Source: a virus. From it: 12,537 bases of DNA. Location of the stretch: UHGV virus genome UHGV-0814049. One strand, given 5' to 3'. The notes under the pieces are model-generated. The model was not told the origin of the DNA, did no database searches, and was given only the letters and a program-made list of their open reading frames with translations. This document shows, piece after piece, positions 1,658 through 12,537 of this stretch (position 1 is its first letter; each line of letters opens with the position of its first letter). Both the position numbers and the translations under genes were made by a program.

Positions 1658-2113
1658 CTATCTCCCGTGATTCAGGAATTCGATTAGTTCTTCGCGTGTA
1701 GCACTGTAAAATGTCACGTCATCCACGCCTTTGAAGTATTTCTTGATGGTTCCTACACGCTTAAGTCCAATCATTGCGCAGTACATCTGACCGTGGCGGA
1801 ATTTGCGTGCGGCGAACGATGTGACGCACTGAACGGTGGTGTTAGTCAGAATGTATCGCCAGAACGCCAGCCCGATTTCCTTGCTGAAGCCACGAACCTC
1901 TGGCAGGTACATGGCGTGGCAATCGAATGTCAGCGGCTGAATCTCCTGATAGTAAACAATGCCACCAAACTGACCGTGCACGTTCACCTCAAAGTAACGG
2001 CAATCAGGTTTGTAGTCGTATCCATCACCGTTGTTGCTCCCGGCGATAATGTCAGGGTGATTTCCTACTGCTTCTATCAGGTCGATGTTTCGCGTTGGTT
2101 TGAATGTAATCAT
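1658..2113 (-). CDS. gp14-like protein (151 aa), P22 gene 14 position
   Basis: Intact ORF; start ATG overlaps the gp26 stop by 1 nt (TGATG on minus). Identity is inferred from conserved position between tail needle and gp7 homologs; the sequence itself is not independently recognised. Confidence 0.6.
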   Translation of the reverse strand: MITFKPTRNIDLIEAVGNHPDIIAGSNNGDGYDYKPDCRYFEVNVHGQFGGIVYYQEIQPLTFDCHAMYLPEVRGFSKEIGLAFWRYILTNTTVQCVTSFAARKFRHGQMYCAMIGLKRVGTIKKYFKGVDDVTFYSATREELIEFLNHGR

Positions 2114-2814
2114 CAGTCAATCAACCCATGAGTCCGTAATGCATCTTCCAGAGCTTTGATCCGCTGCCGCGCCTGCTGCAATCCTGTAGCCATAGCCGAC
2201 ACCTCAGACCGTGTGTATGTGGCACTTACCGTGTATGTCTGGTTAGCGTTGAATGAGCCGCGAAGAGCCGTACCTGTAGCCGCTGTCCACCCTGTCTGAC
2301 GAGCACCAATAACCTTGGTGCCGCCGACCGAATAGGATGTTGTTACATTGAGGGGAGATGCCAGCGATTGTGTTGCAGTGGCTGTTTTCGATACATAGTC
2401 GTCCTGTAATGCAGAAATGTTGCTCTCAGCAGTCGTAACCCGGCCATCAAGAGCGCTGACGTCAGCCTGTAAAGTGACTATTTCTCCTTCAGCCGTGGTT
2501 AGTCTGACATCCAGCGACGCGATTGCATTGGTATTTGCAGTAATACGGATTTCATGGTCGTCTACGTCGATGCGGAGCTGACGAATTCTTTCTTCGTGAT
2601 CGACCAGAATCACATCCTGCTCATCGTTCCTGACTTGTGCGTCATAAGCGCCCTGTCCGGCCTCGTTGGCCTTGTTCGCCACGTTACCAACATCAGTACC
2701 CTGTGCGATAACGTAAAGCAGATACGACTGCGAGAAGATATTGCGTGGAAGGATTGATGTATCGAGCCGCGTAGCTTGAATGATTACCGGCACATTGAGA
2801 TTCGAATCCGCCAT
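2113..2814 (-). CDS. tail needle / cell-envelope-penetrating protein, P22 gp26 family (233 aa)
   Basis: Translation [43 protein letters not shown]...LRTHGLID closely resembles P22 gp26 as I recall it, and has the same 233-aa length. Start overlaps the upstream stop (TAATG). Confidence 0.9.
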
Positions 2815-4233
2815 TACTCAATCCTTATCTGGCTGCCAGACAGAGTGACAGGTGACTTCGTGATAACGCGCAATTTGAAGCCAACATTTTTCCTGATGCG
2901 CCCTACTCGCTTCCACAAAACGCGTTTGTCGTAAACGAACGGTTCATTCTGCTCAATCATCTGCTCACGCCCGTAATTGATGCCGTCAGTGGTTGCAGAG
3001 AGAAAAAGGCGGTCAGCATACTGCGCAACGCCAGTTGACGACTCAACCTCAAGGTCGAAAACTCTGGCGTTATCCGCTTTGAACAACGGAGTAAACAGCA
3101 GGTGTTCCTGTTGCTTGTCGTACTGGCTGCTGATATCGAACTGCAATCTCCCTGTCATCGATTCAAGCTTATCGCCGCACGTAATTTGGTTGCCTTCGTA
3201 AATGAAGTCGATAGCGCGGTACACATCGTCATACAGGCCTGTTTTCAGTACACACCATTGCGGACCATTGGCGCTTGAAGATGCGTCGTACACGAGGACG
3301 TGGCGCGGCAGGTGAATAATCAGCAACTCATGAGCATCAAACCGCAACGATTCCATCACGCCATCAGCCAGTTCATCAGCAGTGTAGGAGCGGAGGATTT
3401 TCTCAATGCTCGCGCTGGCGATTGGTGATACCTGACCGGAGCCGATGATGTATACAGACGGCGCACCTGTTGCCGGATTGCTGATGAACGCATACGAGTC
3501 AGCAAACGGCGTTTTGCAGTAAGTTCCGGCGATGCCTTTTTGCACCATCAGTGATGGCTGTGCGACATACAAAGCAGCACCAACGGTGGTTGCACCTGTC
3601 AGGGAAAAATATTCAATCGTCGATGAACCAAAGCAGACGATGAAGTCTCGCCATGTCCCGATACCGATGATGCCGTCCGGCTGAGACTCGGCACGGATAT
3701 TGTGCACTGTAGCGGTCAGGATGCGATTCGTCTTCAAGGTCAGTGATAAACCATGAATCAGTTCCGTCTTTTGACCACGCATAACGCCCACGTAAGCGCG
3801 TAATATCGCGGACTGAGCCTAACTCATACTGTGTGAATCCGCTGTCTGTAGGCCAGTTTGAGACGGTTTTAACCGTGCCATCATAGCGATACTCGACCAG
3901 TTGACCATTAACGCCTACTGCCTGTGATGTCCTACCGTGTGCCATTGATACGCGACCACTTCCGGCAACATCACCGACCTCGCTTTCGCCCTTATACAGC
4001 TTGCCTCCGCACACGCGATATACAGCATTCTGCGCCATGTTGTACTCGACGCCTCGCGATACGCCGTTCACGTCAGAGCGTTTGGCAATGCCCGGGAATG
4101 AGCGAAGATATCCGCTGCTGTTCAGGATTTCTTTGGGTGTAGCCAGCATATTCACTGGCAGATAGTCGATATAGTCGGCATTTCGGAAGTCTTTGCCGAC
4201 ACCTTTCATGAGCGGAAGTTGCTGAATCGGCAT
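2814..4233 (-). pseudogene. gp10-like tail hub / head-completion protein, interrupted by an apparent +1 frameshift near 3694-3700
   Basis: Two overlapping minus-strand ORFs (3613..4233, 206 aa; 2814..3791, 325 aa) in different frames. The first starts MPIQQLPLMKGVGKDF... and reads like gp10 up to ...HPDRYSAQY (codon at 3697-3699); the second frame picks up the protein-like sequence at RAESQPDGIIGIGTWRDF (codon at 3693-3695). Joining gives 179+293 = 472 aa, the length of P22 gp10 as I recall it. Minus-strand text ...CAATATCCGTGCCGAG... would read Y-R-A-E if one C were removed. Could be a true inactivating mutation or an assembly/sequencing indel. Confidence 0.75.
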
Positions 4234-4242
4234 TTATTCACC

Positions 4243-4704
4243 TCACGTACTCGGATCATCTTTCTCGATGTAAAACCGATTCCACGTAAACGCGCTTTTG
4301 TTACCACTACCGCGAGGCATGTCATTTCGCCGCTCAAGTGGTGGTATTTTGGTTAAAGCGATACAGATTGTTTGATATGCACTGTCAGCAGCGGTAAGGA
4401 GAGCGTCTGACGGCTGAATGACGTTATCCATGCACACTTGCACAGCGAGTTTCAAAGCGACGCCATCATTTGCCCATGCAGGGATACCTGAATCATCGTC
4501 AGGTAACGGCATGATGCCGTTTTCTGTATCAGCAAACTGATATCCAAGCTCGATACCTTTAGCCTGCCATGCTGCCATCATGTCTTCGAGGTCATTAATG
4601 GCATCTTCAATTGCCTGAGGGTCAGCATCTGTCAACGTGGCATTGGAATACAGCCCGGCTTTTCGTAAAGCCTTAAGAACGAGATCACCCTTCGTTTTCG
4701 CCAT
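4243..4704 (-). CDS. gp4-like head-to-tail adaptor / tail accessory factor (153 aa)
   Basis: Translation MAKTKGDLVLKALRKAGLYSNATLTDADPQAIEDAINDLEDMMAAWQAKG... resembles P22 gp4 as I recall it; position between coat and gp10 matches P22 order. Confidence 0.85.
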   Translation of the reverse strand: MAKTKGDLVLKALRKAGLYSNATLTDADPQAIEDAINDLEDMMAAWQAKGIELGYQFADTENGIMPLPDDDSGIPAWANDGVALKLAVQVCMDNVIQPSDALLTAADSAYQTICIALTKIPPLERRNDMPRGSGNKSAFTWNRFYIEKDDPST

Positions 4705-4873
4705 CTTCTTCCGCCTTAGCCACTTTATGCTTCGTTGCGGTTTCTTCAGGAGTTTTTACCCAGCCTTTTTTCAGGTGAGATTTAACTTCTTCGTCATCAA
4801 CAATGATGTAATCGACAGCAAACTGACCACAGGTGATCATGTTGCCAGGCTTATAGAGCATTGTTCGTGCCAT
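4685..4873 (-). CDS. small hypothetical protein (62 aa) between coat and gp4 homolog
   Basis: Track ORF 4685..4912 trimmed to the internal ATG at 4871-4873 (MARTMLYKPGNMITCGQF...), which has a GGGAGAAG RBS 5-12 nt upstream and lies just downstream of the coat-gene terminator hairpin. The 3' end overlaps the gp4-like start by 20 nt. No recognisable domain. Confidence 0.5.
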   Translation of the reverse strand: MARTMLYKPGNMITCGQFAVDYIIVDDEEVKSHLKKGWVKTPEETATKHKVAKAEEDGENEG

Positions 4874-4914: not shown

Positions 4915-6168
4915 TTACTGCCCGGCAATAACGATGCCCGTATATTCAGGAACAAGTACAGAGCAACCGTACAGGGTGGTGAAACGCGCAGTGGTTACAC
5001 CTTTGATGTGGTCGAAGGCGTAAGACATGATCAGCGTAGCGCCCTGCTCGGTGGTTGCTGTCATTACCTGTGGACCCTGACCAGTTGGGAACGCCAGCTT
5101 GCCGTACATCAGTTCAACAGAACCATCAGCCCAGAACAGGTTAGCCGGTGCGGCATTTTTGTTGAGAATGGTGATTGCTGCGCTACTTGCCGCATTAGCA
5201 TCAACGTTTGCATATGGTCGGCTGGCGACATCCGCGTTGTCAGGCGGCAGAATTTTCGGGGAGATAGTTACTGTCGTTCCGCTTACTGCCAGAACGCGGA
5301 ATACCTGCGGCTGCCCGGTGGTATCTTTGGTGATCTGGTGTACAGAATTCACCCCTGCGATGGTAAACGCATCGCCAACCTGCAAACCTTCAGCAGATAC
5401 CGTAATGGTCCCCTGTCGGTTATCCACTGGCATATCGTTAGCATCTTTCGCTTCAACCTTGTGCGCAGGTGCTGCTGCCAGCGTAATGGAAGTTGCTGTA
5501 CCCTTCGGAACACGACCAGAAATATCGGTCTTGTAGCTATCGAAGGACGCAACCGGAGGGATTTGCGCTTTTTCGTATGCTGTCAGGGTTGCGCCCTGAG
5601 CATAGGCACGGTGACCAAGCTCGCCAGCAAGGTCTTTGTAGTTGAAGGGGTTCCAGAAAGAGCGACGGTTGATACCCTGAGGTACACCAATCGCCGTCAT
5701 GGTGGCATCAATACCTGCCGCACAGTTCCACAAATCACGGCCCTGTGAACCTGTGGTTGAGTCAGCCATCGTGATCACGTTAGTAGCACGCTGCGTGACC
5801 ATGGAAATCAGGTCAGAGTCAATCTGTGCAGCAAGGCGCATACCTGCGGCTCGACCAGCTTCAGTTTTATGTTCCGGGTCACGCATTTCACGCGCATCCA
5901 GAGTGTACAGAATGTTTTTCGGCTCCTTGAACACAGAAGGAACAAGGCGCTGAACCAGTGCTGTTGGCGTTTTGCTGCTGAGGTCGAGGCCTTCCTCAAT
6001 ATTCATGTGGTAATGCTGCGGACGATACAGAACATCACCTGCTCGCTGCATTGCTGTATCACCGGGACGGAATTTTTTAGCGTTACGGGAAACTACGCAG
6101 GCGGCCTCAAAGCCTTCAACGTAGTTTTCGAACATGATTTCAAGGTCTTTTGCTAATTGGTTAGCCAT
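4915..6168 (-). CDS. major capsid (coat) protein, P22 gp5 family (417 aa)
   Basis: Length and position as in P22-like phages; N-terminal pattern ...AKKFRPGDTAMQRAGDVLYRP... parallels P22 coat AKKYTPP..SMQR as I recall it. RBS GGAG upstream; followed by a terminator. Confidence 0.85.
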   Translation of the reverse strand: MANQLAKDLEIMFENYVEGFEAACVVSRNAKKFRPGDTAMQRAGDVLYRPQHYHMNIEEGLDLSSKTPTALVQRLVPSVFKEPKNILYTLDAREMRDPEHKTEAGRAAGMRLAAQIDSDLISMVTQRATNVITMADSTTGSQGRDLWNCAAGIDATMTAIGVPQGINRRSFWNPFNYKDLAGELGHRAYAQGATLTAYEKAQIPPVASFDSYKTDISGRVPKGTATSITLAAAPAHKVEAKDANDMPVDNRQGTITVSAEGLQVGDAFTIAGVNSVHQITKDTTGQPQVFRVLAVSGTTVTISPKILPPDNADVASRPYANVDANAASSAAITILNKNAAPANLFWADGSVELMYGKLAFPTGQGPQVMTATTEQGATLIMSYAFDHIKGVTTARFTTLYGCSVLVPEYTGIVIAGQ

Positions 6169-6186: not shown

Positions 6187-7080
6187 TTATTTTTTTGCCT
6201 TTTTAGCGGCGAAATACGGCGTCCAGTCACCAGTTTCCAGCGCCTTGGCTTTCAGTTTGTCGAGGTTGTTGATTACTGCGCCGTTGCTCCCCTTAACTGT
6301 CGGGGTTGTGGCTGCCGTGTTTTTTGCTTTTGGCATGATTCTGGCCTTCGATTCGATACGTTCCAGCAGACGACCAATTGCTACGGGGTTGGTAGCTTCT
6401 GCCAGTTGCTTGCGCAGTTCAGCGTTGCGACCGAGCGCCAGAACAACGATTTCCGGCTTCTCTGACTCAAACAGGATCGCGTTTTGTGTCTCGATGGGGA
6501 TTTCCTCGAGTACGGCCTGTTCTGCTTCCTGATAGCCAGGAACCTTGAGAGCCTTAACACGTTGCTGATATTTGGATAATCGCTCTTGATAGGCAGCCTG
6601 AAGCTCCTGCTCCTTCTGCTTGCGAGCCATCTCCTGTTGCTGGTACTTGCCGTTATCCTCTGCCCACTTAGCCATGCGTTGCTGGTAGATTTCTTCATCG
6701 AAACCGATGTCCTCATCATCCAGTTTTGGCATTCGCGGTGGTTGAGTGATTACCGGCTGCTGCTCGACGGGTTTCTGAGACTGACGCATCAGCTCTTTCA
6801 GCTCACGGTCTTTCTCTTTAATCGTCTTGCGCAGGTGTTTTACCAGTCCATGCTCTGCGCCATCTTCGCTGGTTGGCGAATCCAGCTTTTCGTCACCAAA
6901 GTAGAATTCCTGTTCTGATTCGTCGGCATCAGTTTCAGTAGCTTCCTCTACATCATTGCCGGAGGACTCACTGCCATCTTCTGTTTCGACTTCTTCAGCC
7001 AGTTCGACATCATCAGGAATCTGCTCTGACGCGTCGGTTTCGATTTCAACTTCTGGTGTGTTTTCTGCCATCTGGTCCAT
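6187..7080 (-). CDS. scaffolding protein, P22 gp8-like (297 aa)
   Basis: Located between portal and coat. Very acidic N-terminal ~75 aa, a central charged helical region rich in E/K/Q/R, and a basic C-terminal tail (...ETGDWTPYFAAKKAKK) consistent with a coat-binding helix-turn-helix end. Length close to P22 gp8 (~303 aa). Confidence 0.8.
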   Translation of the reverse strand: MDQMAENTPEVEIETDASEQIPDDVELAEEVETEDGSESSGNDVEEATETDADESEQEFYFGDEKLDSPTSEDGAEHGLVKHLRKTIKEKDRELKELMRQSQKPVEQQPVITQPPRMPKLDDEDIGFDEEIYQQRMAKWAEDNGKYQQQEMARKQKEQELQAAYQERLSKYQQRVKALKVPGYQEAEQAVLEEIPIETQNAILFESEKPEIVVLALGRNAELRKQLAEATNPVAIGRLLERIESKARIMPKAKNTAATTPTVKGSNGAVINNLDKLKAKALETGDWTPYFAAKKAKK

Positions 7081-7170: not shown

Positions 7171-9354
7171 TTACTGCTGTGGTTGTTGCTGAGTTGATTT
7201 TTGCAGGATGCTGTTGATGTCCATGCGCTGCGCATGACCCTGTGCCTGACTTTTCAGGACAAGCTCTGCATCAGCACGGGCATTGTCTCCTTGCTGTTGC
7301 TGGAACTGTCCGAGCAGTTTCAGAGCCTCGCGGATATCAGATTTCTGCTGACTATCGGCAGATGCGAGTATTTTCACAACATTTGCCGCTGCAACCTGAG
7401 CATCAGTCTGTGCCTGGAATGCTTTAACCTGAATGGCTGCCTGTTCGTTCTGCGCTTTCTGCAATTCAGCCTGACCAGCAAGAAGCTGACCTTGCGCTGC
7501 AACCATAGCCGGATCTGGCTGACTGGCCTGTTGTTGTTTCGCCTGTTCAACCATCTGCTGTTCTTCTGGCGTTCTCGGCTTGATAACTCCAGACAGAAGC
7601 AACTGATTGTGGTTGTATTCTTTAAGGTCGTCCATCCCTTCGCCGTCCATATTGTCGAGGATCATCGACGATACAAGGTCGTGTTTCGGCGTTCCGGGCG
7701 GGATAAGTGCCAGCATGGAAAGTAACGACTTAACCGTTGCATCACGGCGAGTAGCGAACGACTGACCGACATCGACAGTCACTTCATAGTTACCCTGCGA
7801 AAGGTCGTTAAGCGCGATAACCTGGCCTGTCTGACGGTCAACCACTTCACCAGTCATCAGCGCCACGTCATCGCTGCCGTCCTCATTAACGATACGCATC
7901 GGCGTATCGCTGCCATAGACTTCACGAGCCATAGAAAGCCACACAACGCCAGCGCGACGCATGGATTTAGCCATGTTGTCCATGTAGATATAGGACTGCG
8001 TATCCATCCGGTTAAAGATGCTATCAACGGTATCGGTGGCGACGTTGCTCGGCATGTTCTCAAGCTGCGACGCACCTGTTATTTGCTGAATAGCCGTTCC
8101 GGTGTACTGCAATAGCCCGGCAAGAGCTGGAGGCATTTGTGTCGGAGGCGTATAACTGCTGACCTGAGCCTGCGCAGTAATATCTCCGTTTTTGTTTTTC
8201 AGACTGACCATCGGCAGGAACGCCGGGCGATTTTTGTTGCGCTCCGCCCAATGAGTGGCAAGAGGACCAGGAATCATGTCAACATCAACTACAGGAATGC
8301 CATCGCCGCCAGCCTGAGTGGCGTTATCTGCAATCATGGAAACCATCAGGTTCTCAAGACGCTGTGCATCCATCGCTTTTGCAGCGTGGCCTTCGATTCG
8401 CTCCTGATTATCAACAAATGAGCGACGCCCATATACCGGGATGAGAGGAATATGTTCACCCGGAATACGCTTCGGTTCTTCCAGCCATTCAGCGCCAGAC
8501 AGAAGACCGCAATAAACGCGGCGCTTCTTCACCGTTCGCTCGCCAATCAGTTCGAATGCACCATCGGTCAGCTCGTCGACAATATCTTTGATTTGCTCTT
8601 CATCATAGATTGCCGTTTCTCCGCTAACAGGGTTGCGCCACGCCGTGAGCTTCACCTTCTCTATGCGAACTTCGTAGTAGCGTCCAACATAGATGGCATC
8701 GGGCGTTGACCAGTCATATTGAGTGCCAGTGTCATCACGAGAAAGGCTTGCCGCGATGGAATCAGGGTATTCAGCCTCGAACGCTTTAGGCGTCATGGAG
8801 AACATTTCCATAGCCCACATAGCATCAGAGCGGTCATATTGCTTGCTGTCCTGATCGAAGAAGACGCATGTCGCTGGGTCGTAAACAGGAAGAAGGCTGA
8901 TGCGTCGCTGCTCGTTACTCGGATCCATTTCATCTTCGTAATCGGCACACATGCGGAAACAACCGAATCCGCCCGTTACAGCATCATCAAATGCGTTATC
9001 ACACGCTTCGCCACCGGATGTTTCCTGATAGTCAGCGCGGAATTTGCCGTTCATCTTTTCGGCTAACGCTTCCGATGCCTTATCGTCCTTCGGCCTGAAT
9101 TTAACGCTGATGCGATTCTGTCGATACTCGCCAATGATGCGATCACATTCACGGGCAATCTTATTCAGTTCAAAGCGCGGATAATGCTCAAACCTGCCTT
9201 CATCAAATGAGTAACCAGCGTTTGTGCTGCCTTCCCACTGTGCGCCGGATACCCGGACGAAACGTTGAGCCTCAATAATCTGCTCACGCATATCCTGCGT
9301 TGCTGACCAGGCATTATCAAAGTTGCACAGCACCTTGCGATGCCAGTCAGTCAT
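7171..9354 (-). CDS. portal protein, P22 gp1 family (727 aa)
   Basis: Size matches P22 portal (~725 aa). Gln-rich C-terminal ~120 aa predicted helical extension (...QQMVEQAKQQQASQ...QQQPQQ) typical of P22-type portal barrels. Sits immediately downstream of large terminase. Confidence 0.9.
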   Translation of the reverse strand: MTDWHRKVLCNFDNAWSATQDMREQIIEAQRFVRVSGAQWEGSTNAGYSFDEGRFEHYPRFELNKIARECDRIIGEYRQNRISVKFRPKDDKASEALAEKMNGKFRADYQETSGGEACDNAFDDAVTGGFGCFRMCADYEDEMDPSNEQRRISLLPVYDPATCVFFDQDSKQYDRSDAMWAMEMFSMTPKAFEAEYPDSIAASLSRDDTGTQYDWSTPDAIYVGRYYEVRIEKVKLTAWRNPVSGETAIYDEEQIKDIVDELTDGAFELIGERTVKKRRVYCGLLSGAEWLEEPKRIPGEHIPLIPVYGRRSFVDNQERIEGHAAKAMDAQRLENLMVSMIADNATQAGGDGIPVVDVDMIPGPLATHWAERNKNRPAFLPMVSLKNKNGDITAQAQVSSYTPPTQMPPALAGLLQYTGTAIQQITGASQLENMPSNVATDTVDSIFNRMDTQSYIYMDNMAKSMRRAGVVWLSMAREVYGSDTPMRIVNEDGSDDVALMTGEVVDRQTGQVIALNDLSQGNYEVTVDVGQSFATRRDATVKSLLSMLALIPPGTPKHDLVSSMILDNMDGEGMDDLKEYNHNQLLLSGVIKPRTPEEQQMVEQAKQQQASQPDPAMVAAQGQLLAGQAELQKAQNEQAAIQVKAFQAQTDAQVAAANVVKILASADSQQKSDIREALKLLGQFQQQQGDNARADAELVLKSQAQGHAQRMDINSILQKSTQQQPQQ

Positions 9355-9369
9355 CTTTTTTCTGCCATA

Positions 9370-10785
9370 TCAACCTACACCACAAGGAATTGAGTAACTG
9401 GAATAGTCGGGTTGCGCAGCCGACTCCGGGCAATGCATACACATCATCAGCGCATCAGCCAGGTTAGGAGATGGAATACCGAGCTTCTGCTTCATATCGA
9501 CCTTAGTCATTAGCTCCAGCTTCCCGTTGTTATTGAATTTGCGCTGAATCTGCGTCAGTTCTGCAAACAGCTTCTCCAGCATATTCTCGCCTATCGCTTC
9601 TTTGTCGAAACTCAGCATGTCGTCGGGGTCTGCATACTCACCGTGGACAACCGCCCGATATGTCAGATACAGCCTGTCAGCCAGCACGTAATAGAATTGC
9701 GCTCGCTTATTGCGGAATATATCGCCAATAGTGCGAACGTTGTCGCCCTGTACGACTTCATCAGCCCATGCTCCGGCCTGATACGGTGCATCTTCATCGA
9801 ATGGCGATTCGCTGCCCTTGAACATCGTGGCGGTGATTTTCTTGCCGGAGAACGCTTCCGTTGTCTGTCTGCGTAGCCCGGCACCAACACCATCACCATC
9901 CCACAAGTAGTGGTCAGCGCCGTCTTCAATCGCCAGCGAAGTAGCCCAGTCAGCACCCTCGTTGATGTCCATCAGCAGACCTTCGGCAATGCGCTTAACT
10001 ACCGAACCGTGACGCGATGCATAACCTTTAGCATCTGGCCCTGTATCTGATGGGTCATGCGCAGAGACAACAGCGCCTTTCGCTTTCCATCCGAGTTTCT
10101 TGTGCGCATCGGTTGCGGCTTCAAGCCATTCACGTTTGATGATTGCCATATCACTTGCGCTTACTGGCTCACCAAGCCAGATGTGACGATACAGTGTCGG
10201 GTTTCTGCGTTTACACTCTTCCATCTCCAGACGGAGAACTTCAGGAAAGTGCGGGTTGTCGGTGTAGTTCACCGTCAGCAGACAAATATCATCAGGAGGG
10301 TTTACGACGAATCGCTGATAGGTATCGTCGAGGATGTTTTTCGGGTTGAAGCTCACCCATATTTCAGAGAACGGCTTACGGATGGTTGGTATCAGGATAT
10401 CCCACGATTCCTTTGTTACCGCTTCCGCTTCTTCCACCCAGCAGATATCAATACCTTCTAGCGATTTAATCTTCGTCGGGTTGTTTTTAATGCCGTAGAA
10501 CATGAATTCAGCATTCGTTCCGAGATGACGAATCATGGAACGCTGAATTTCAAACTCAGCCGAATACCCTTCCCGCTCTATGGTGTCTTCAAGCAACCGG
10601 ATTACCGAATCGCTGATACTGTTTTGCAGTTCACGAGCGCAGAGAATACGCACCGGCTGCCGACGCGCCGCTTCAACAAGCAGCCTCGCGATTGCCCATG
10701 ACTTACCGCTACCTCGACCGCCTTTGGCGACTTTATAGCGATGCGCCTCAATGAACGGTTCAAAGATAGGATTAATCGAGGTCAT
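9370..10785 (-). CDS. terminase large subunit (471 aa)
   Basis: N-terminal Walker A P-loop (KVAKGGRGSGKSW), then an ATPase region and a C-terminal nuclease-type region with conserved acidic residues. Start ATG overlaps the small-terminase stop (ATGA at 10782-10785). Length like Sf6-type TerL (~470 aa). Confidence 0.95.
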   Translation of the reverse strand: MTSINPIFEPFIEAHRYKVAKGGRGSGKSWAIARLLVEAARRQPVRILCARELQNSISDSVIRLLEDTIEREGYSAEFEIQRSMIRHLGTNAEFMFYGIKNNPTKIKSLEGIDICWVEEAEAVTKESWDILIPTIRKPFSEIWVSFNPKNILDDTYQRFVVNPPDDICLLTVNYTDNPHFPEVLRLEMEECKRRNPTLYRHIWLGEPVSASDMAIIKREWLEAATDAHKKLGWKAKGAVVSAHDPSDTGPDAKGYASRHGSVVKRIAEGLLMDINEGADWATSLAIEDGADHYLWDGDGVGAGLRRQTTEAFSGKKITATMFKGSESPFDEDAPYQAGAWADEVVQGDNVRTIGDIFRNKRAQFYYVLADRLYLTYRAVVHGEYADPDDMLSFDKEAIGENMLEKLFAELTQIQRKFNNNGKLELMTKVDMKQKLGIPSPNLADALMMCMHCPESAAQPDYSSYSIPCGVG

Positions 10786-11222
10786 TTTCCGAATAGAGTG
10801 CTCATCGGTGATGTTTCAATCTGGATTGCGCCGCCGTCTTTGCCTGTTAGCTCGTGATCAACCTTATCGCGCCATTTATCCTTCTGTCGGTTCTTAAGCC
10901 AGAAGATGGCGGCGGTTGTATCAGGCGGGTAATACTTCTCAAGCGGAGTTTCGACAATTCTGTTTTCAATAACACGAATATCGATGTCTGGAGCCACGAA
11001 GCCCATAGCGCGTTGATAAAGACGATCACTAACTTCTGCATCAGCGACGGCCTTACCCTTTTTTATGGACTCTAAAAACTCCGGATATTCCAATTTCCAA
11101 TTGTTGATTGTTGCCTCGCTAACTTCAAAGAAGTCCGCGAGTTCGGCGTCTGTATAGCCCAGCAAGCACAGTTTGCGTGCCTGTTCGGCATACGCCTCTT
11201 GATACTTCGTTGGGCGCGCCAT
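10782..11222 (-). CDS. terminase small subunit (146 aa)
   Basis: Immediately upstream of and translationally coupled to the large terminase. N-terminal HTH-like segment (LCLLGYTDAELADFFEVSEATINNW) typical of TerS DNA-binding domains. RBS GGAG upstream. Confidence 0.8.
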   Translation of the reverse strand: MARPTKYQEAYAEQARKLCLLGYTDAELADFFEVSEATINNWKLEYPEFLESIKKGKAVADAEVSDRLYQRAMGFVAPDIDIRVIENRIVETPLEKYYPPDTTAAIFWLKNRQKDKWRDKVDHELTGKDGGAIQIETSPMSTLFGK

Positions 11223-11224
11223 GT

Positions 11225-11467
11225 TTATGCTCCGGTAGTGAACAGGTCTAACGCTTCCTTCGATTTACGCACCGCTTCGATAGTGCGGGTCGTGATATCC
11301 GAATTAGCGCCGCCTGACTGGAAGTGAATTTTGAATAGCTCAAGCTTCAGTTCGTCAGTGCCGATGAATTGAAATGCTTCCTCTGCGGCTGCGTTCTGGT
11401 TCATGACCAGTTTGTAAATCTCTAACTGGAATTTCTGTTCTTCAGCCATGGGAATAATCTCTGCCAT
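11225..11467 (-). CDS. hypothetical protein (80 aa), translationally coupled to small terminase
   Basis: ATG at 11465-11467 with ACGGAG RBS 7 nt upstream. Stop (11225-11227) is 2 nt from the terS start (TAA-AC-ATG). Normal GC content. No recognisable domain. Confidence 0.6.
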   Translation of the reverse strand: MAEIIPMAEEQKFQLEIYKLVMNQNAAAEEAFQFIGTDELKLELFKIHFQSGGANSDITTRTIEAVRKSKEALDLFTTGA

Positions 11468-11714: not shown

Positions 11715-12200
11715 TTATTTCAGTTCGTTACCAGGCATTTCTTTTAGCTCTTTCAAATGACAACGATTGAGACTAAACCACTCCCCGTGCGACCTATAGT
11801 TGTAATATTTTTGGTGCAATTTGGTTTCAAGCTCTCTATCGGCCGGAATCTTTGCAATTAGATTTAGCTTCCCACCACTCATGCGATATATCTCTGAAAT
11901 TCGTTTATTAACCCTGCGACTAAACCCTATTTTTGTTAGCCCACTATCTTCAGCATGCAGAACGTACACATATGATTTTTGCGAAGCACTGGGTGCGACT
12001 TTGTTGTAATTAATCATGTCAAACATGAAGCCTTGCTTTAGCAAAGTTTCAAAAAAGATAGAATTAACACACCCATTCCTTCTCAGCTCTGCACTTAGCT
12101 TGTCAATTTCCTCTATGATGTCGCCAGACCCCTTTCCACTTATAAGAAAATCTTGGTACATGCGACCAATTCTTGAGGTAATTTCAACAAAGTTATTCAT
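11715..12200 (-). CDS. T5orf172 / GIY-YIG-like domain protein (161 aa) in an AT-richer island; unknown N-terminal ~75 aa
   Basis: C-terminal half has YVYVLHAEDSGLTKIGFS ... R..KRISEI ... ELETKLHQKYYNYR ... GEWFSL, matching the conserved pattern of the T5orf172 domain (YxYxL-KIG-R-E-GEWF) as I recall it. The gene is visibly AT-rich with frequent AGA/AGG/ATA/AAA codons, unlike the flanking phage genes. Separated from the packaging operon by a ~250-nt noncoding gap. Confidence 0.75.
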   Translation of the reverse strand: MNNFVEITSRIGRMYQDFLISGKGSGDIIEEIDKLSAELRRNGCVNSIFFETLLKQGFMFDMINYNKVAPSASQKSYVYVLHAEDSGLTKIGFSRRVNKRISEIYRMSGGKLNLIAKIPADRELETKLHQKYYNYRSHGEWFSLNRCHLKELKEMPGNELK

Positions 12201-12393: not shown

Positions 12394-12537
12394 TGGCTCT
12401 TATCTCAACGCAGCAACTCACAAGACGGGATCGTGAAAGAAATCAAAGGCGCGGACACGTTCATCTTTGGTCATACGCCAGCAGTGAAACCACTTAAATT
12501 TGCCAACCAAATGTATATCGATACCGGAGCAGTGTTC
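12394..12537 (+). pseudogene. 3' fragment of a lambda-type Ser/Thr protein phosphatase (NinI/PrpA family), lacking the catalytic N-terminus
   Basis: Plus frame reads ...[48 protein letters not shown] to the window end, matching the C-terminal region of lambda phosphatase as I recall it. The same frame has a TAA at 12346-12348 and no ATG upstream of the homologous part, so the metal-binding N-terminal motifs are absent. Confidence 0.6.

What the first reader, a model, noticed from the sequence alone, without database searches (positions are those of the whole stretch)
3613..3791. Apparent +1 frameshift splitting the gp10-like tail hub gene
The two ORFs overlap over 3613..3791 in different frames, and the gp10-like reading switches frame between codon Y (3697-3699) and codon R (3693-3695). 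Splicing the frames gives exactly 472 aa, the P22 gp10 length as I recall it, which argues for a single inserted base around 3694-3700 (plus GG at 3695-3696 / minus CC). gp10 is required for tail assembly and DNA retention in P22, so if real this lesion would make the prophage unable to produce infectious particles. Alternatively it is an assembly or sequencing error. The local sequence is not a slippery heptamer, so programmed frameshifting is unlikely.
Basis: partly seen in the sequence, partly recalled or inferred. Interest (0 to 1): 0.5.

Follow-up and report, generated by a model that had tools for sequence, protein, structure and literature searches.

The report
Frameshifted tail-hub gene in P22-like prophage
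One extra base splits the essential tail-hub gene (P22 gp10 / Sf6 gp8 family) of a P22-like phage into two overlapping reading frames, which is an ordinary recent knockout or a sequencing error, not new biology.

Summary
The gp10-family tail-hub gene (minus strand, 2814-4233) is 1420 nt here. It is 1419 nt in every relative checked. The extra base is one C of a minus-strand CC (plus GG 3695-3696), between codons Y179 and R180. Removing it gives a 472-aa protein, 98.5-99.2% identical to Sf6 gp8, HK620 gp10 and Huey, and matching the solved Sf6 and P22 hub structures end to end.

The insertion is private. It has 0 hits in 5,426 complete E. coli genomes, GTDB representatives, IMG/VR and JGI metagenomes, and none of 120 fetched loci carries it. 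The wild-type word is in at least 120 viral contigs. Both halves show dN/dS of 0.00-0.06, so the lesion is very recent or an artefact. There is no slippery site and no conservation, so programmed frameshifting and a natural two-piece gene are rejected.

As written, the gene encodes 179 native plus 27 aberrant residues. This product cannot form the six-bladed propeller or the adaptor-binding domain, which is built from both termini.

Two other private oddities are nearby: an A7->A6 change at the portal 5' end, and an inverted join to a ninI fragment of exactly 127 nt. Together they suggest a short-read contig from a rearranged, defective prophage. My estimate is about 65% real mutation and 28% sequencing error. 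Interest is low.

The parts
3695..3696 (-). Site of the single extra base. The minus strand has CC (plus GG) where all relatives have one C. It lies between codon Y179 (3699-3697) and codon R180 (3695-3693).
   Evidence: Alignment. tblastn HSP break. The pile-up of 120 loci places the gap at 3695 (72 loci) or 3696 (48 loci), so 120 of 120 lack the base.
3613..4233 (-). 5' ORF as written: 206 aa. It holds native gp10 residues 1-179 plus a 27-residue out-of-frame tail (PCRVSAGRHHRYRDMARLHRLLWFIDD), with stop TGA at 3615-3613.
   Evidence: No protein in the 5.8-billion-cluster collection shares the tail; the highest query coverage is 87%, which is residues 1-179.
2814..3695 (-). Native codons 180-472 plus the stop of the tail-hub gene, now in the +1 frame. 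The mechanical ORF extends upstream to GTG 3791, adding about 30 non-native codons.
3613..3791 (-). Overlap of the two reading frames. This is the finding's interval and the only stretch in which a +1 shift could rejoin the frames.
   Evidence: Codon-by-codon reading found no CUU-UGA, CCC-UGA, tandem rare-codon or homopolymer motif at the lesion.
4243..4704 (-). Head-to-tail adaptor (P22 gp4 / Sf6 gp7 family). It is intact and is the upstream neighbour and binding partner of the hub.
   Evidence: PF11650 at 140 bits. PHROG 637. 100% identical to the E. coli PM7 protein.
2113..2814 (-). Tail needle (P22 gp26 type, 233 aa). It is intact and is the downstream neighbour; its start overlaps the hub's stop.
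   Evidence: PHROG 1219, E = 1.4e-126. Full-length tblastn match.

Best explanation
This is a genuine and very recent single-base insertion: a duplicated C on the coding strand, at plus 3695/3696. It frameshifts the tail-hub gene (P22 gp10 / Sf6 gp8 family) of a P22-like (Lederbergvirus-type) prophage.

Shown: translation from ATG 4233 yields 179 native residues, then 27 wrong ones, then a stop at 3613. Codons 180-472 are left in the +1 frame without a start of their own.

Inferred from the solved structure: the hub protomer is a six-bladed beta-propeller. Its adaptor-binding lamin-B1-like domain is built from both the N and C termini. The truncated product can therefore neither close the propeller nor dock on the gp4 adaptor ring. 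Without a hub, neither the needle plug nor the tailspikes can attach. Packaged DNA would leak and no infectious particles would form.

Inferred from context: the element appears to be already defective. Its late operon is joined, in inverted orientation, to the middle of a ninI phosphatase gene instead of to the Q/lysis cassette. The frameshift would then be one lesion of early prophage decay, not a regulatory device.
For: - Lesion and exact position.
- Family identity and collinear halves.
- The repaired protein is 472 aa. It is 98.5-99.2% identical to Sf6, HK620, Huey and E. coli 7/2 orthologues and matches 7SG7 and 8TVR end to end.
- Private allele. The mutant 24-mer has 0 hits in genome contigs, viral contigs and metagenome contigs. 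A 54-mer centred on the lesion has 0 hits in 5,426 complete E. coli genomes. The wild-type word is in at least 120 viral contigs.
- Recent. dN/dS is 0.00-0.02 upstream and 0.02-0.06 downstream of the lesion against seven relatives. There are only 3 private substitutions in the gene.
- All other late genes are single-frame and full length.
- Structure-based null prediction and the role of the hub come from PMC9728967. Stoichiometry of 12 gp4 and 6 gp10 comes from PMC3741392.
- Defective-element context. Homology to the normal layout ends at 12414. Window 12411-12537 (+) is 100% identical to nt ~495-621 of ninI in inverted orientation, joined through the 4-nt microhomology CAGC. This junction is absent from all collections searched.
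- Read support (inference). The ninI stretch is exactly 127 nt, the largest default SPAdes k. That suggests a short-read contig end, and single-base consensus indel errors are rare in such assemblies.
- Other frameshifted gp10 alleles exist in public assemblies at other positions, for example a 291-aa form with 387 member sequences. Natural knockouts of this gene do occur.
Against: - No reads are available, so a consensus error cannot be excluded.
- The window carries a second rare single-base indel in a homopolymer (portal 5' A7->A6). Comparators show at most 2 uncompensated frameshifts in 469 kb. An excess of indels without an excess of substitutions is what error-prone chemistry would produce.
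- The private nonsynonymous/synonymous ratio is not raised: 10/19 here against 330/486 pooled (Fisher p = 0.57). There is no independent signature of relaxed selection.
- The k = 127 reading is an inference from one number.
- An inverted junction with microhomology a few kb away is also the typical form of a multiple-displacement-amplification chimera.
- The source genome could not be found, so the host, the integration state and the rest of the element are unknown.
Confidence: 0.65

Rival explanations
1. It is a sequencing or assembly artefact. The real DNA has one C, the tail-hub gene is intact, and the phage is fully functional at this locus.
For: - The allele is unique among all sequences searched.
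- Both halves are under strong purifying selection.
- The repaired protein is essentially wild type.
- A second rare 1-nt indel sits in an A7 homopolymer only 5.7 kb away. That gives 2 indels in 12.5 kb, against at most 2 in 469 kb of comparator DNA.
- There is no excess of private nonsynonymous changes.
- The inverted microhomology junction at 12411-12414 fits an MDA chimera (my knowledge of Lasken & Stockwell 2007). Combined with homopolymer-error chemistry, this would explain all three oddities as artefacts.
Against: - The insertion is C->CC, not a long homopolymer, and lies in no Dam/Dcm motif (read directly). It is an atypical site for systematic indel errors.
- The 127-nt repeat tail at the window end suggests an Illumina-type de Bruijn contig, where consensus indels are rare (inference).
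- The A6 portal allele recurs in 3 independent complete genomes, where PGAP calls a normal 727-aa portal. It may be a real and benign variant.
- The other 11 genes carry no indel errors.
Confidence: 0.28
2. The gene is functionally rescued. Either low-level +1 ribosomal frameshifting in the 3613-3791 overlap makes near-full-length hub protein, or the two halves are made separately and assemble as a split beta-propeller.
For: - The two frames overlap by 179 nt, so a +1 shift anywhere in that stretch would rejoin them.
- Two CUU-N codons in the zero frame (CTT CAT and CTT TGG) could in principle let tRNA-Leu re-pair at +1, as in prfB (read; mechanism from my own knowledge).
- GTG 3791 and ATG 3782 exist in the downstream frame.
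Against: - The insertion is absent from every relative, so nothing has been selected to read through it.
- At the lesion itself (UAU CCG UGC) no tRNA can re-pair at +1.
- The CUU sites have no in-frame stop, no rare A-site codon and no upstream Shine-Dalgarno stimulator.
- A shift at the CUU sites would replace 18-21 residues inside a propeller blade.
- There is no homopolymer to support transcriptional slippage.
- The fragments would carry 27 and about 26-30 foreign residues at the break, and the adaptor-binding domain needs both termini in one fold.
- No homologue is naturally split: 97 of 97 are intact.
Confidence: 0.03

Closest known systems
P22 gp10 / Sf6 gp8 / HK620 gp10 tail hub ('packaged DNA stabilization protein gp10', Pfam PF11134, PHROG 578 'head closure Hc3')
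   Same: - Same family, and the same position between the gp4 adaptor and the gp26 needle.
- The repaired product is 472 aa, 98.5-99.2% identical to Sf6, HK620 and Huey orthologues.
- It gives full-length matches to solved structures 7SG7 and 8TVR.
   Different: Here the ORF is interrupted by one extra base after codon 179. All 97 full-length comparators, and all listed phage and E. coli hits, are uninterrupted 1419-nt genes.
Frameshifted structural-gene pseudogenes in decaying or cryptic enterobacterial prophages, including other gp10 frameshift alleles in public assemblies
   Same: - A single-base indel inactivates an essential virion gene while the neighbouring genes stay intact.
- Public data hold gp10 alleles frameshifted near residues ~150-165 and ~232, including a 291-aa form with 387 member sequences.
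- A related E. coli prophage (Z0117EC0117) carries a frameshifted ninB and a partial dnaB.
   Different: - The position here (codon 179/180) is not shared with any of them.
- There is no substitution-level signature of decay yet, so if real this is at the very start of the process.
Programmed +1 ribosomal frameshifting (prfB type, CUU UGA C with an upstream Shine-Dalgarno)
   Same: Reading through would need a +1 shift, and the two frames overlap.
   Different: There is no conserved shift site, no stimulatory element, no conservation of the split in relatives, and the site is not slippery. It neither works like this family nor belongs to it.

Membership tests
P22 gp10 / Sf6 gp8 tail hub (PF11134 Phage_stabilise; PHROG 578) | Sequence matches the family profile above the curated threshold across the whole profile | tested here: met
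   ORF1 scores 356 bits on profile 1-177 and ORF2 scores 621 bits on profile 175-469, against a cutoff of 25. PHROG 578 matches at 1-180 and 178-470. The repaired protein matches 7SG7 and 8TVR over residues 1-472.
P22 gp10 / Sf6 gp8 tail hub (PF11134 Phage_stabilise; PHROG 578) | Encoded as one uninterrupted ORF of about 472 codons | tested here: not met
   The gene is 1420 nt, with a frame break after codon 179. 97 of 97 comparators are ungapped with no internal stops. As written, this is a pseudogene of the family, not a functional member.
P22 gp10 / Sf6 gp8 tail hub (PF11134 Phage_stabilise; PHROG 578) | Conserved gene order: gp4 adaptor, then hub, then gp26 needle, then gp14, gp7 and gp20 | tested here: met
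   and the annotated relatives.
P22 gp10 / Sf6 gp8 tail hub (PF11134 Phage_stabilise; PHROG 578) | Six-bladed beta-propeller plus a lamin-B1-like domain formed by both the N and C termini, assembling as a hexamer on the gp4 dodecamer | not tested
   No model was built. The 206-aa product actually encoded lacks the C-terminal 293 residues and cannot satisfy this feature (inference).
P22 gp10 / Sf6 gp8 tail hub (PF11134 Phage_stabilise; PHROG 578) | Function: retention of packaged DNA and recruitment of the needle and tailspikes | not testable with these tools
   This needs induction, electron microscopy, plaque assays and complementation.
Programmed ribosomal frameshift site | The frame split is conserved among homologues | tested here: not met
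   None of 120 loci carries the extra base. There are 0 hits in 5,426 E. coli genomes and 0 in the three large collections.
Programmed ribosomal frameshift site | A shift-prone motif with a stimulator at the frame junction | tested here: not met
   The sequence CAA UAU CCG UGC CGA was read directly. There is no re-pairing option, no stop or hungry codon, no upstream Shine-Dalgarno and no homopolymer.
Prophage pseudogene (real inactivating mutation) | Reading frame disrupted relative to intact orthologues | tested here: met
Prophage pseudogene (real inactivating mutation) | Independent signs that the element is defective or under relaxed selection | tested here: inconclusive
   For: a private inverted junction to a ninI fragment at 12411-12414 and a rare portal A6 allele. 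Against: the private N/S ratio is not elevated and dN/dS is 0.00-0.06.
Prophage pseudogene (real inactivating mutation) | The lesion is present in the underlying reads or DNA | not testable with these tools
   No reads are available, and the source contig was not found by exact protein look-ups.

The most novel reading that the evidence does not exclude
The frameshift is real and the 206-aa fragment is expressed from the prophage. The fragment holds 179 native residues: half of the adaptor-binding domain plus the first propeller blades. It would act as a dominant-negative decoy, occupying gp4 adaptor rings or co-assembling with hub monomers of superinfecting P22-like phages. In that case a 'broken' structural gene would have been co-opted as an assembly-poisoning defence. 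Nothing here supports this beyond the intact 5' half and its intact translation start. Nothing strictly excludes it either.
Probability: 0.02. Interest if true: 0.55.

Novelty: already known. Interest (0 to 1): 0.1.

Why it matters
If the lesion is real, this P22-like prophage cannot build tails or retain packaged DNA. It cannot spread as a virus unless a related phage rescues it by recombination or complementation. That is useful for annotating the source strain, for example when predicting inducible phages or transduction risk. Biologically it is routine: single-base knockouts of prophage virion genes are common, and this gene family, its structure and its role are well characterised. If the lesion is an error, the only consequence is a corrected annotation. 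The practical lesson is that the call needs read-level confirmation, and that the gene should be annotated as a frameshifted pseudogene of gp10, not as two hypothetical proteins.

Tried and rejected
1. Natural two-gene architecture. Rejected: all relatives have one 1419-nt ORF.

2. Programmed +1 frameshifting or transcriptional slippage. Rejected: there is no motif and no conservation.

3. Looking for the same allele elsewhere, to show inheritance and so prove it real. No hits came from genome, viral or metagenome contig scans, from complete E. coli genomes or from the protein-cluster search, where the highest coverage was 87%, meaning no shared out-of-frame tail.

4. Finding the source contig by exact protein look-up. 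The 206-aa ORF, gp26 and the portal are not on record. The gp7 allele is widespread, but its carriers are only 91-97% identical to the window.

5. Dating the lesion. dN/dS is very low on both sides. The private nonsynonymous/synonymous ratio compared with 115 comparators shows no excess. This says the lesion is recent but does not separate a real mutation from an error.

6. Base rate of frameshifts in comparators. There are at most 2 uncompensated events in 469 kb. This shows the window is unusual, but the result fits both explanations.

7. Rfam and tRNA scans of the window found nothing.

8. One Pfam call failed because I gave a wrong frame for the partial gp20. The six-frame check showed gp20 is open and runs off the left end.

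Full report
**What the window is.** All long genes lie on the minus strand and form the late (morphogenesis) block of a P22-like phage of the Sf6/HK620/CUS-3 type.

| Gene | Coordinates | Note |
|---|---|---|
| DUF2560 | 11225-11467 | |
| small terminase | 10782-11222 | |
| large terminase | 9370-10785 | |
| portal | 7171-9354 | |
| scaffold | 6187-7080 | |
| coat | 4915-6168 | |
| small ORF | 4688-4873 | 62 aa |
| gp4-type adaptor | 4243-4704 | |
| gp10-type tail hub | 2814-4233 | split |
| gp26-type needle | 2113-2814 | |
| gp14 | 1658-2113 | |
| gp7 | 960-1655 | |
| gp20 | 950 downwards | runs off the left end |

These assignments rest. The closest public relatives are prophages of E. coli and phages such as Huey, HK620, Sf6 and CUS-3, at about 94-97% nucleotide identity. 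No record holds the window itself.

**The observation.**
- Two ORFs, 3613..4233 (206 aa) and 2814..3791 (325 aa), overlap over 3613-3791 in different frames.
- Both belong to one family with collinear coordinates. Pfam PF11134 matches profile 1-177 and then 175-469, at 356 and 621 bits against a cutoff of 25. PHROG 578 matches 1-180 and then 178-470.
- The gene region is 1420 nt here. Every top hit spans 1419 nt, in 122 phage records and 855 E. coli genomes with at least 80% coverage.
- A five-way DNA alignment has one gap column: AATATCCGTGCC in the window against AATAT-CGTGCC elsewhere.
- tblastn with an intact orthologue breaks between aa 179 (ending at 3697) and aa 180 (starting at 3695).
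- In a pile-up of all fetched loci, 120 of 120 lack this base.
- Deleting one G of plus 3695-3696 gives a 472-aa protein without stops. It is 98.5-99.2% identical to the E. coli 7/2, Huey, Sf6 and HK620 proteins. It matches the solved Sf6 gp8 (7SG7) and P22 gp10 (8TVR, 8EAP) chains end to end.

**Is it shared?** No.
- A 24-mer carrying the insertion has no exact match in one genome per GTDB species, in IMG/VR or in JGI metagenomes. The wild-type 23-mer occurs in at least 120 viral contigs.
- A 54-mer centred on the lesion was designed so that wild-type sequences cannot seed a 28-nt word. It has no match in 5,426 complete E. coli genomes.
- A protein search with the 206-aa ORF returned no sequence covering the out-of-frame tail; the highest coverage was 87%.
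- That search did reveal other frameshifted gp10 alleles at other positions. One is a 291-aa form with 387 member sequences, and there are several forms of about 205-243 aa. Natural knockouts of this gene therefore exist.

**How old is it?** Against seven relatives, dN/dS is 0.00-0.02 for codons 1-179 and 0.02-0.06 for codons 180-472. The gene has three private substitutions: one synonymous change upstream, and K362R and C467S downstream. Both halves were under strong purifying selection for essentially all of their history. The lesion is therefore very recent, or not real.

**What it does if real.** Translation gives 179 native residues, then 27 aberrant residues, then a stop at 3613. According to the 2.8-Å Sf6 tail structure, the hub protomer is an interrupted six-bladed beta-propeller. 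Its apical lamin-B1-like domain is formed jointly by the N- and C-terminal extensions. That domain inserts between two adaptor subunits. The hub also recruits the six tailspikes and is plugged by the needle (PMC9728967). P22 tails contain 12 gp4 and 6 gp10 (PMC3741392). A product lacking residues 180-472 cannot close the propeller or form the docking domain; this step is inference. From established P22 genetics (Strauss & King 1984, my own knowledge), gene 10 mutants package DNA but lose it and make no infectious particles.

**Rivals considered.**
- *Programmed +1 frameshifting or a natural split.* Excluded, because the split is not conserved and the site (UAU CCG UGC) offers no re-pairing, no pause codon, no Shine-Dalgarno stimulator and no homopolymer. 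Two CUU-N codons later in the overlap could allow only unstimulated, trace-level slippage. That slippage would replace 18-21 residues inside a blade.
- *Sequencing or assembly error.* This remains the serious rival.

**Evidence bearing on real versus error.**

(a) A second rare single-base indel lies at the portal 5' end.
- Relatives have ATGGCAGAAAAAAAGATGAC (A7). The window has A6 at 9356-9361.
- A7 is present in 17 fetched loci and A6 in none. 27 of 28 covering loci show the gap.
- A6 does recur in 3 of 5,426 complete E. coli genomes. There PGAP calls a normal 727-aa portal from the internal ATG.
- The Pfam portal domain starts only at residue 10 of the short form, so this change is probably benign.
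- In the window the upstream mini-ORF ends in TGA overlapping that ATG (ATGA). This would allow coupled re-initiation (read; inference).

(b) Comparators show at most two uncompensated frameshifts in 469 kb of aligned late-region DNA. Two in 12.5 kb is unusual.

(c) The window's private nonsynonymous/synonymous count (10/19) is no higher than the pooled comparators' (330/486, Fisher p = 0.57). There is no independent sign of prolonged relaxed selection. Points (b) and (c) together lean towards error.

(d) The right end of the window is rearranged.
- Homology to the normal layout (…Rz, small ORF, GIY-YIG, DUF2560, TerS) stops at 12414.
- Window 12411-12537 on the plus strand is 100% identical to nt ~495-621 of a lambdoid ninI Ser/Thr phosphatase gene. 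This is the opposite orientation. The join runs through the microhomology CAGC.
- In the related prophage of strain Z0117EC0117 both pieces lie about 2.5 kb apart. An inversion of the ninI'-Q-holin-endolysin-Rz segment would create exactly this junction.
- No collection holds the junction.

(e) The ninI-identical tail is exactly 127 nt, the largest default SPAdes k-mer. A de Bruijn contig ends when its last k-mer lies wholly inside a repeat. I therefore infer three things. The window is a whole short-read contig. The junction is read-supported. The normal continuation is absent on that side. In such assemblies single-base consensus indels are rare, especially at a non-homopolymer C->CC. This tips my estimate towards a real mutation in a prophage whose late operon is already cut off from Q/pR'. 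The alternative artefact story is an MDA chimera combined with homopolymer-error chemistry. It is coherent, but it needs a less common data type.

**Verdict.** It is a private, very recent +1-nt frameshift in a well-known essential virion gene. My estimates are about 65% genuine inactivating mutation in a probably already defective P22-like prophage, about 28% sequencing or assembly error, and about 3% any form of functional rescue. The remainder is unassigned. Nothing about it is mechanistically new, so interest is low.

Noticed in passing
window 9356-9361 (minus-strand A-run, portal 5' end; upstream ATG at 9368-9366, internal ATG at 9354-9352): One A is missing from an A7 run that is conserved in relatives (A6 here). 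The portal start that PGAP annotates in relatives (MAEKKMTD...) now stops after 5 codons, at a TGA overlapping the internal ATG (ATGA). The portal therefore starts at 9354 and is 727 aa. A6 is absent from the 125 loci fetched at that stage but present in 3 of 5,426 complete E. coli genomes, where it is annotated as a normal portal. It is probably benign, but it is a second rare 1-nt indel in the window.
   Followed up: yes
window 12411-12537 (+), junction at 12411-12414: The late region is joined in inverted orientation to the 3' third of a lambdoid ninI Ser/Thr phosphatase gene (100% identity), through the 4-nt microhomology CAGC. Relatives have the Rz/endolysin/holin/Q cassette at this point. 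The junction is found in no public collection searched. The ninI piece is exactly 127 nt, which looks like the k-mer overhang of a short-read de Bruijn contig end.
   Followed up: partly
window 11715-12200 (-): A 161-aa GIY-YIG / T5orf172 (MUG113) nuclease-like ORF (PHROG 4284) sits between the lysis region and DUF2560/TerS. Many relatives (E. coli PM7, SCU-109) carry a Rha-family regulator at this position, so this is a swappable slot of moron or homing-endonuclease type.
   Followed up: partly
window 3148 and 2834 (gp10 codons 362 and 467): The only two private substitutions downstream of the frameshift are both nonsynonymous (K362R and C467S). The single private change upstream (4006) is synonymous. 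The numbers are too small to show relaxed selection.
   Followed up: yes
proteins P0001, P0004, P0006, P0011-P0013, P0016: Public assemblies contain several independent frameshifted gp10 alleles at other positions (near residues ~150-165 and ~232). One is a 291-aa form represented by 387 member sequences, suggesting a widely sampled clone with a dead hub gene.
   Followed up: partly
window 2113-2814 versus relatives L001, L126 and L129: The needle gene here is the short 233-aa P22-type allele. The closest gp10 relatives carry 282-317-aa 'tail needle knob' alleles. A mosaic boundary therefore sits right at the gp10 stop / gp26 start overlap.
   Followed up: no
L129 (E. coli Z0117EC0117, NZ_CP098187.1), locus 1-1041: This related prophage shares the A6 portal allele. 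It also carries a frameshifted ninB and a partial dnaB-like gene, which is an example of stepwise decay in the same phage group.
   Followed up: no
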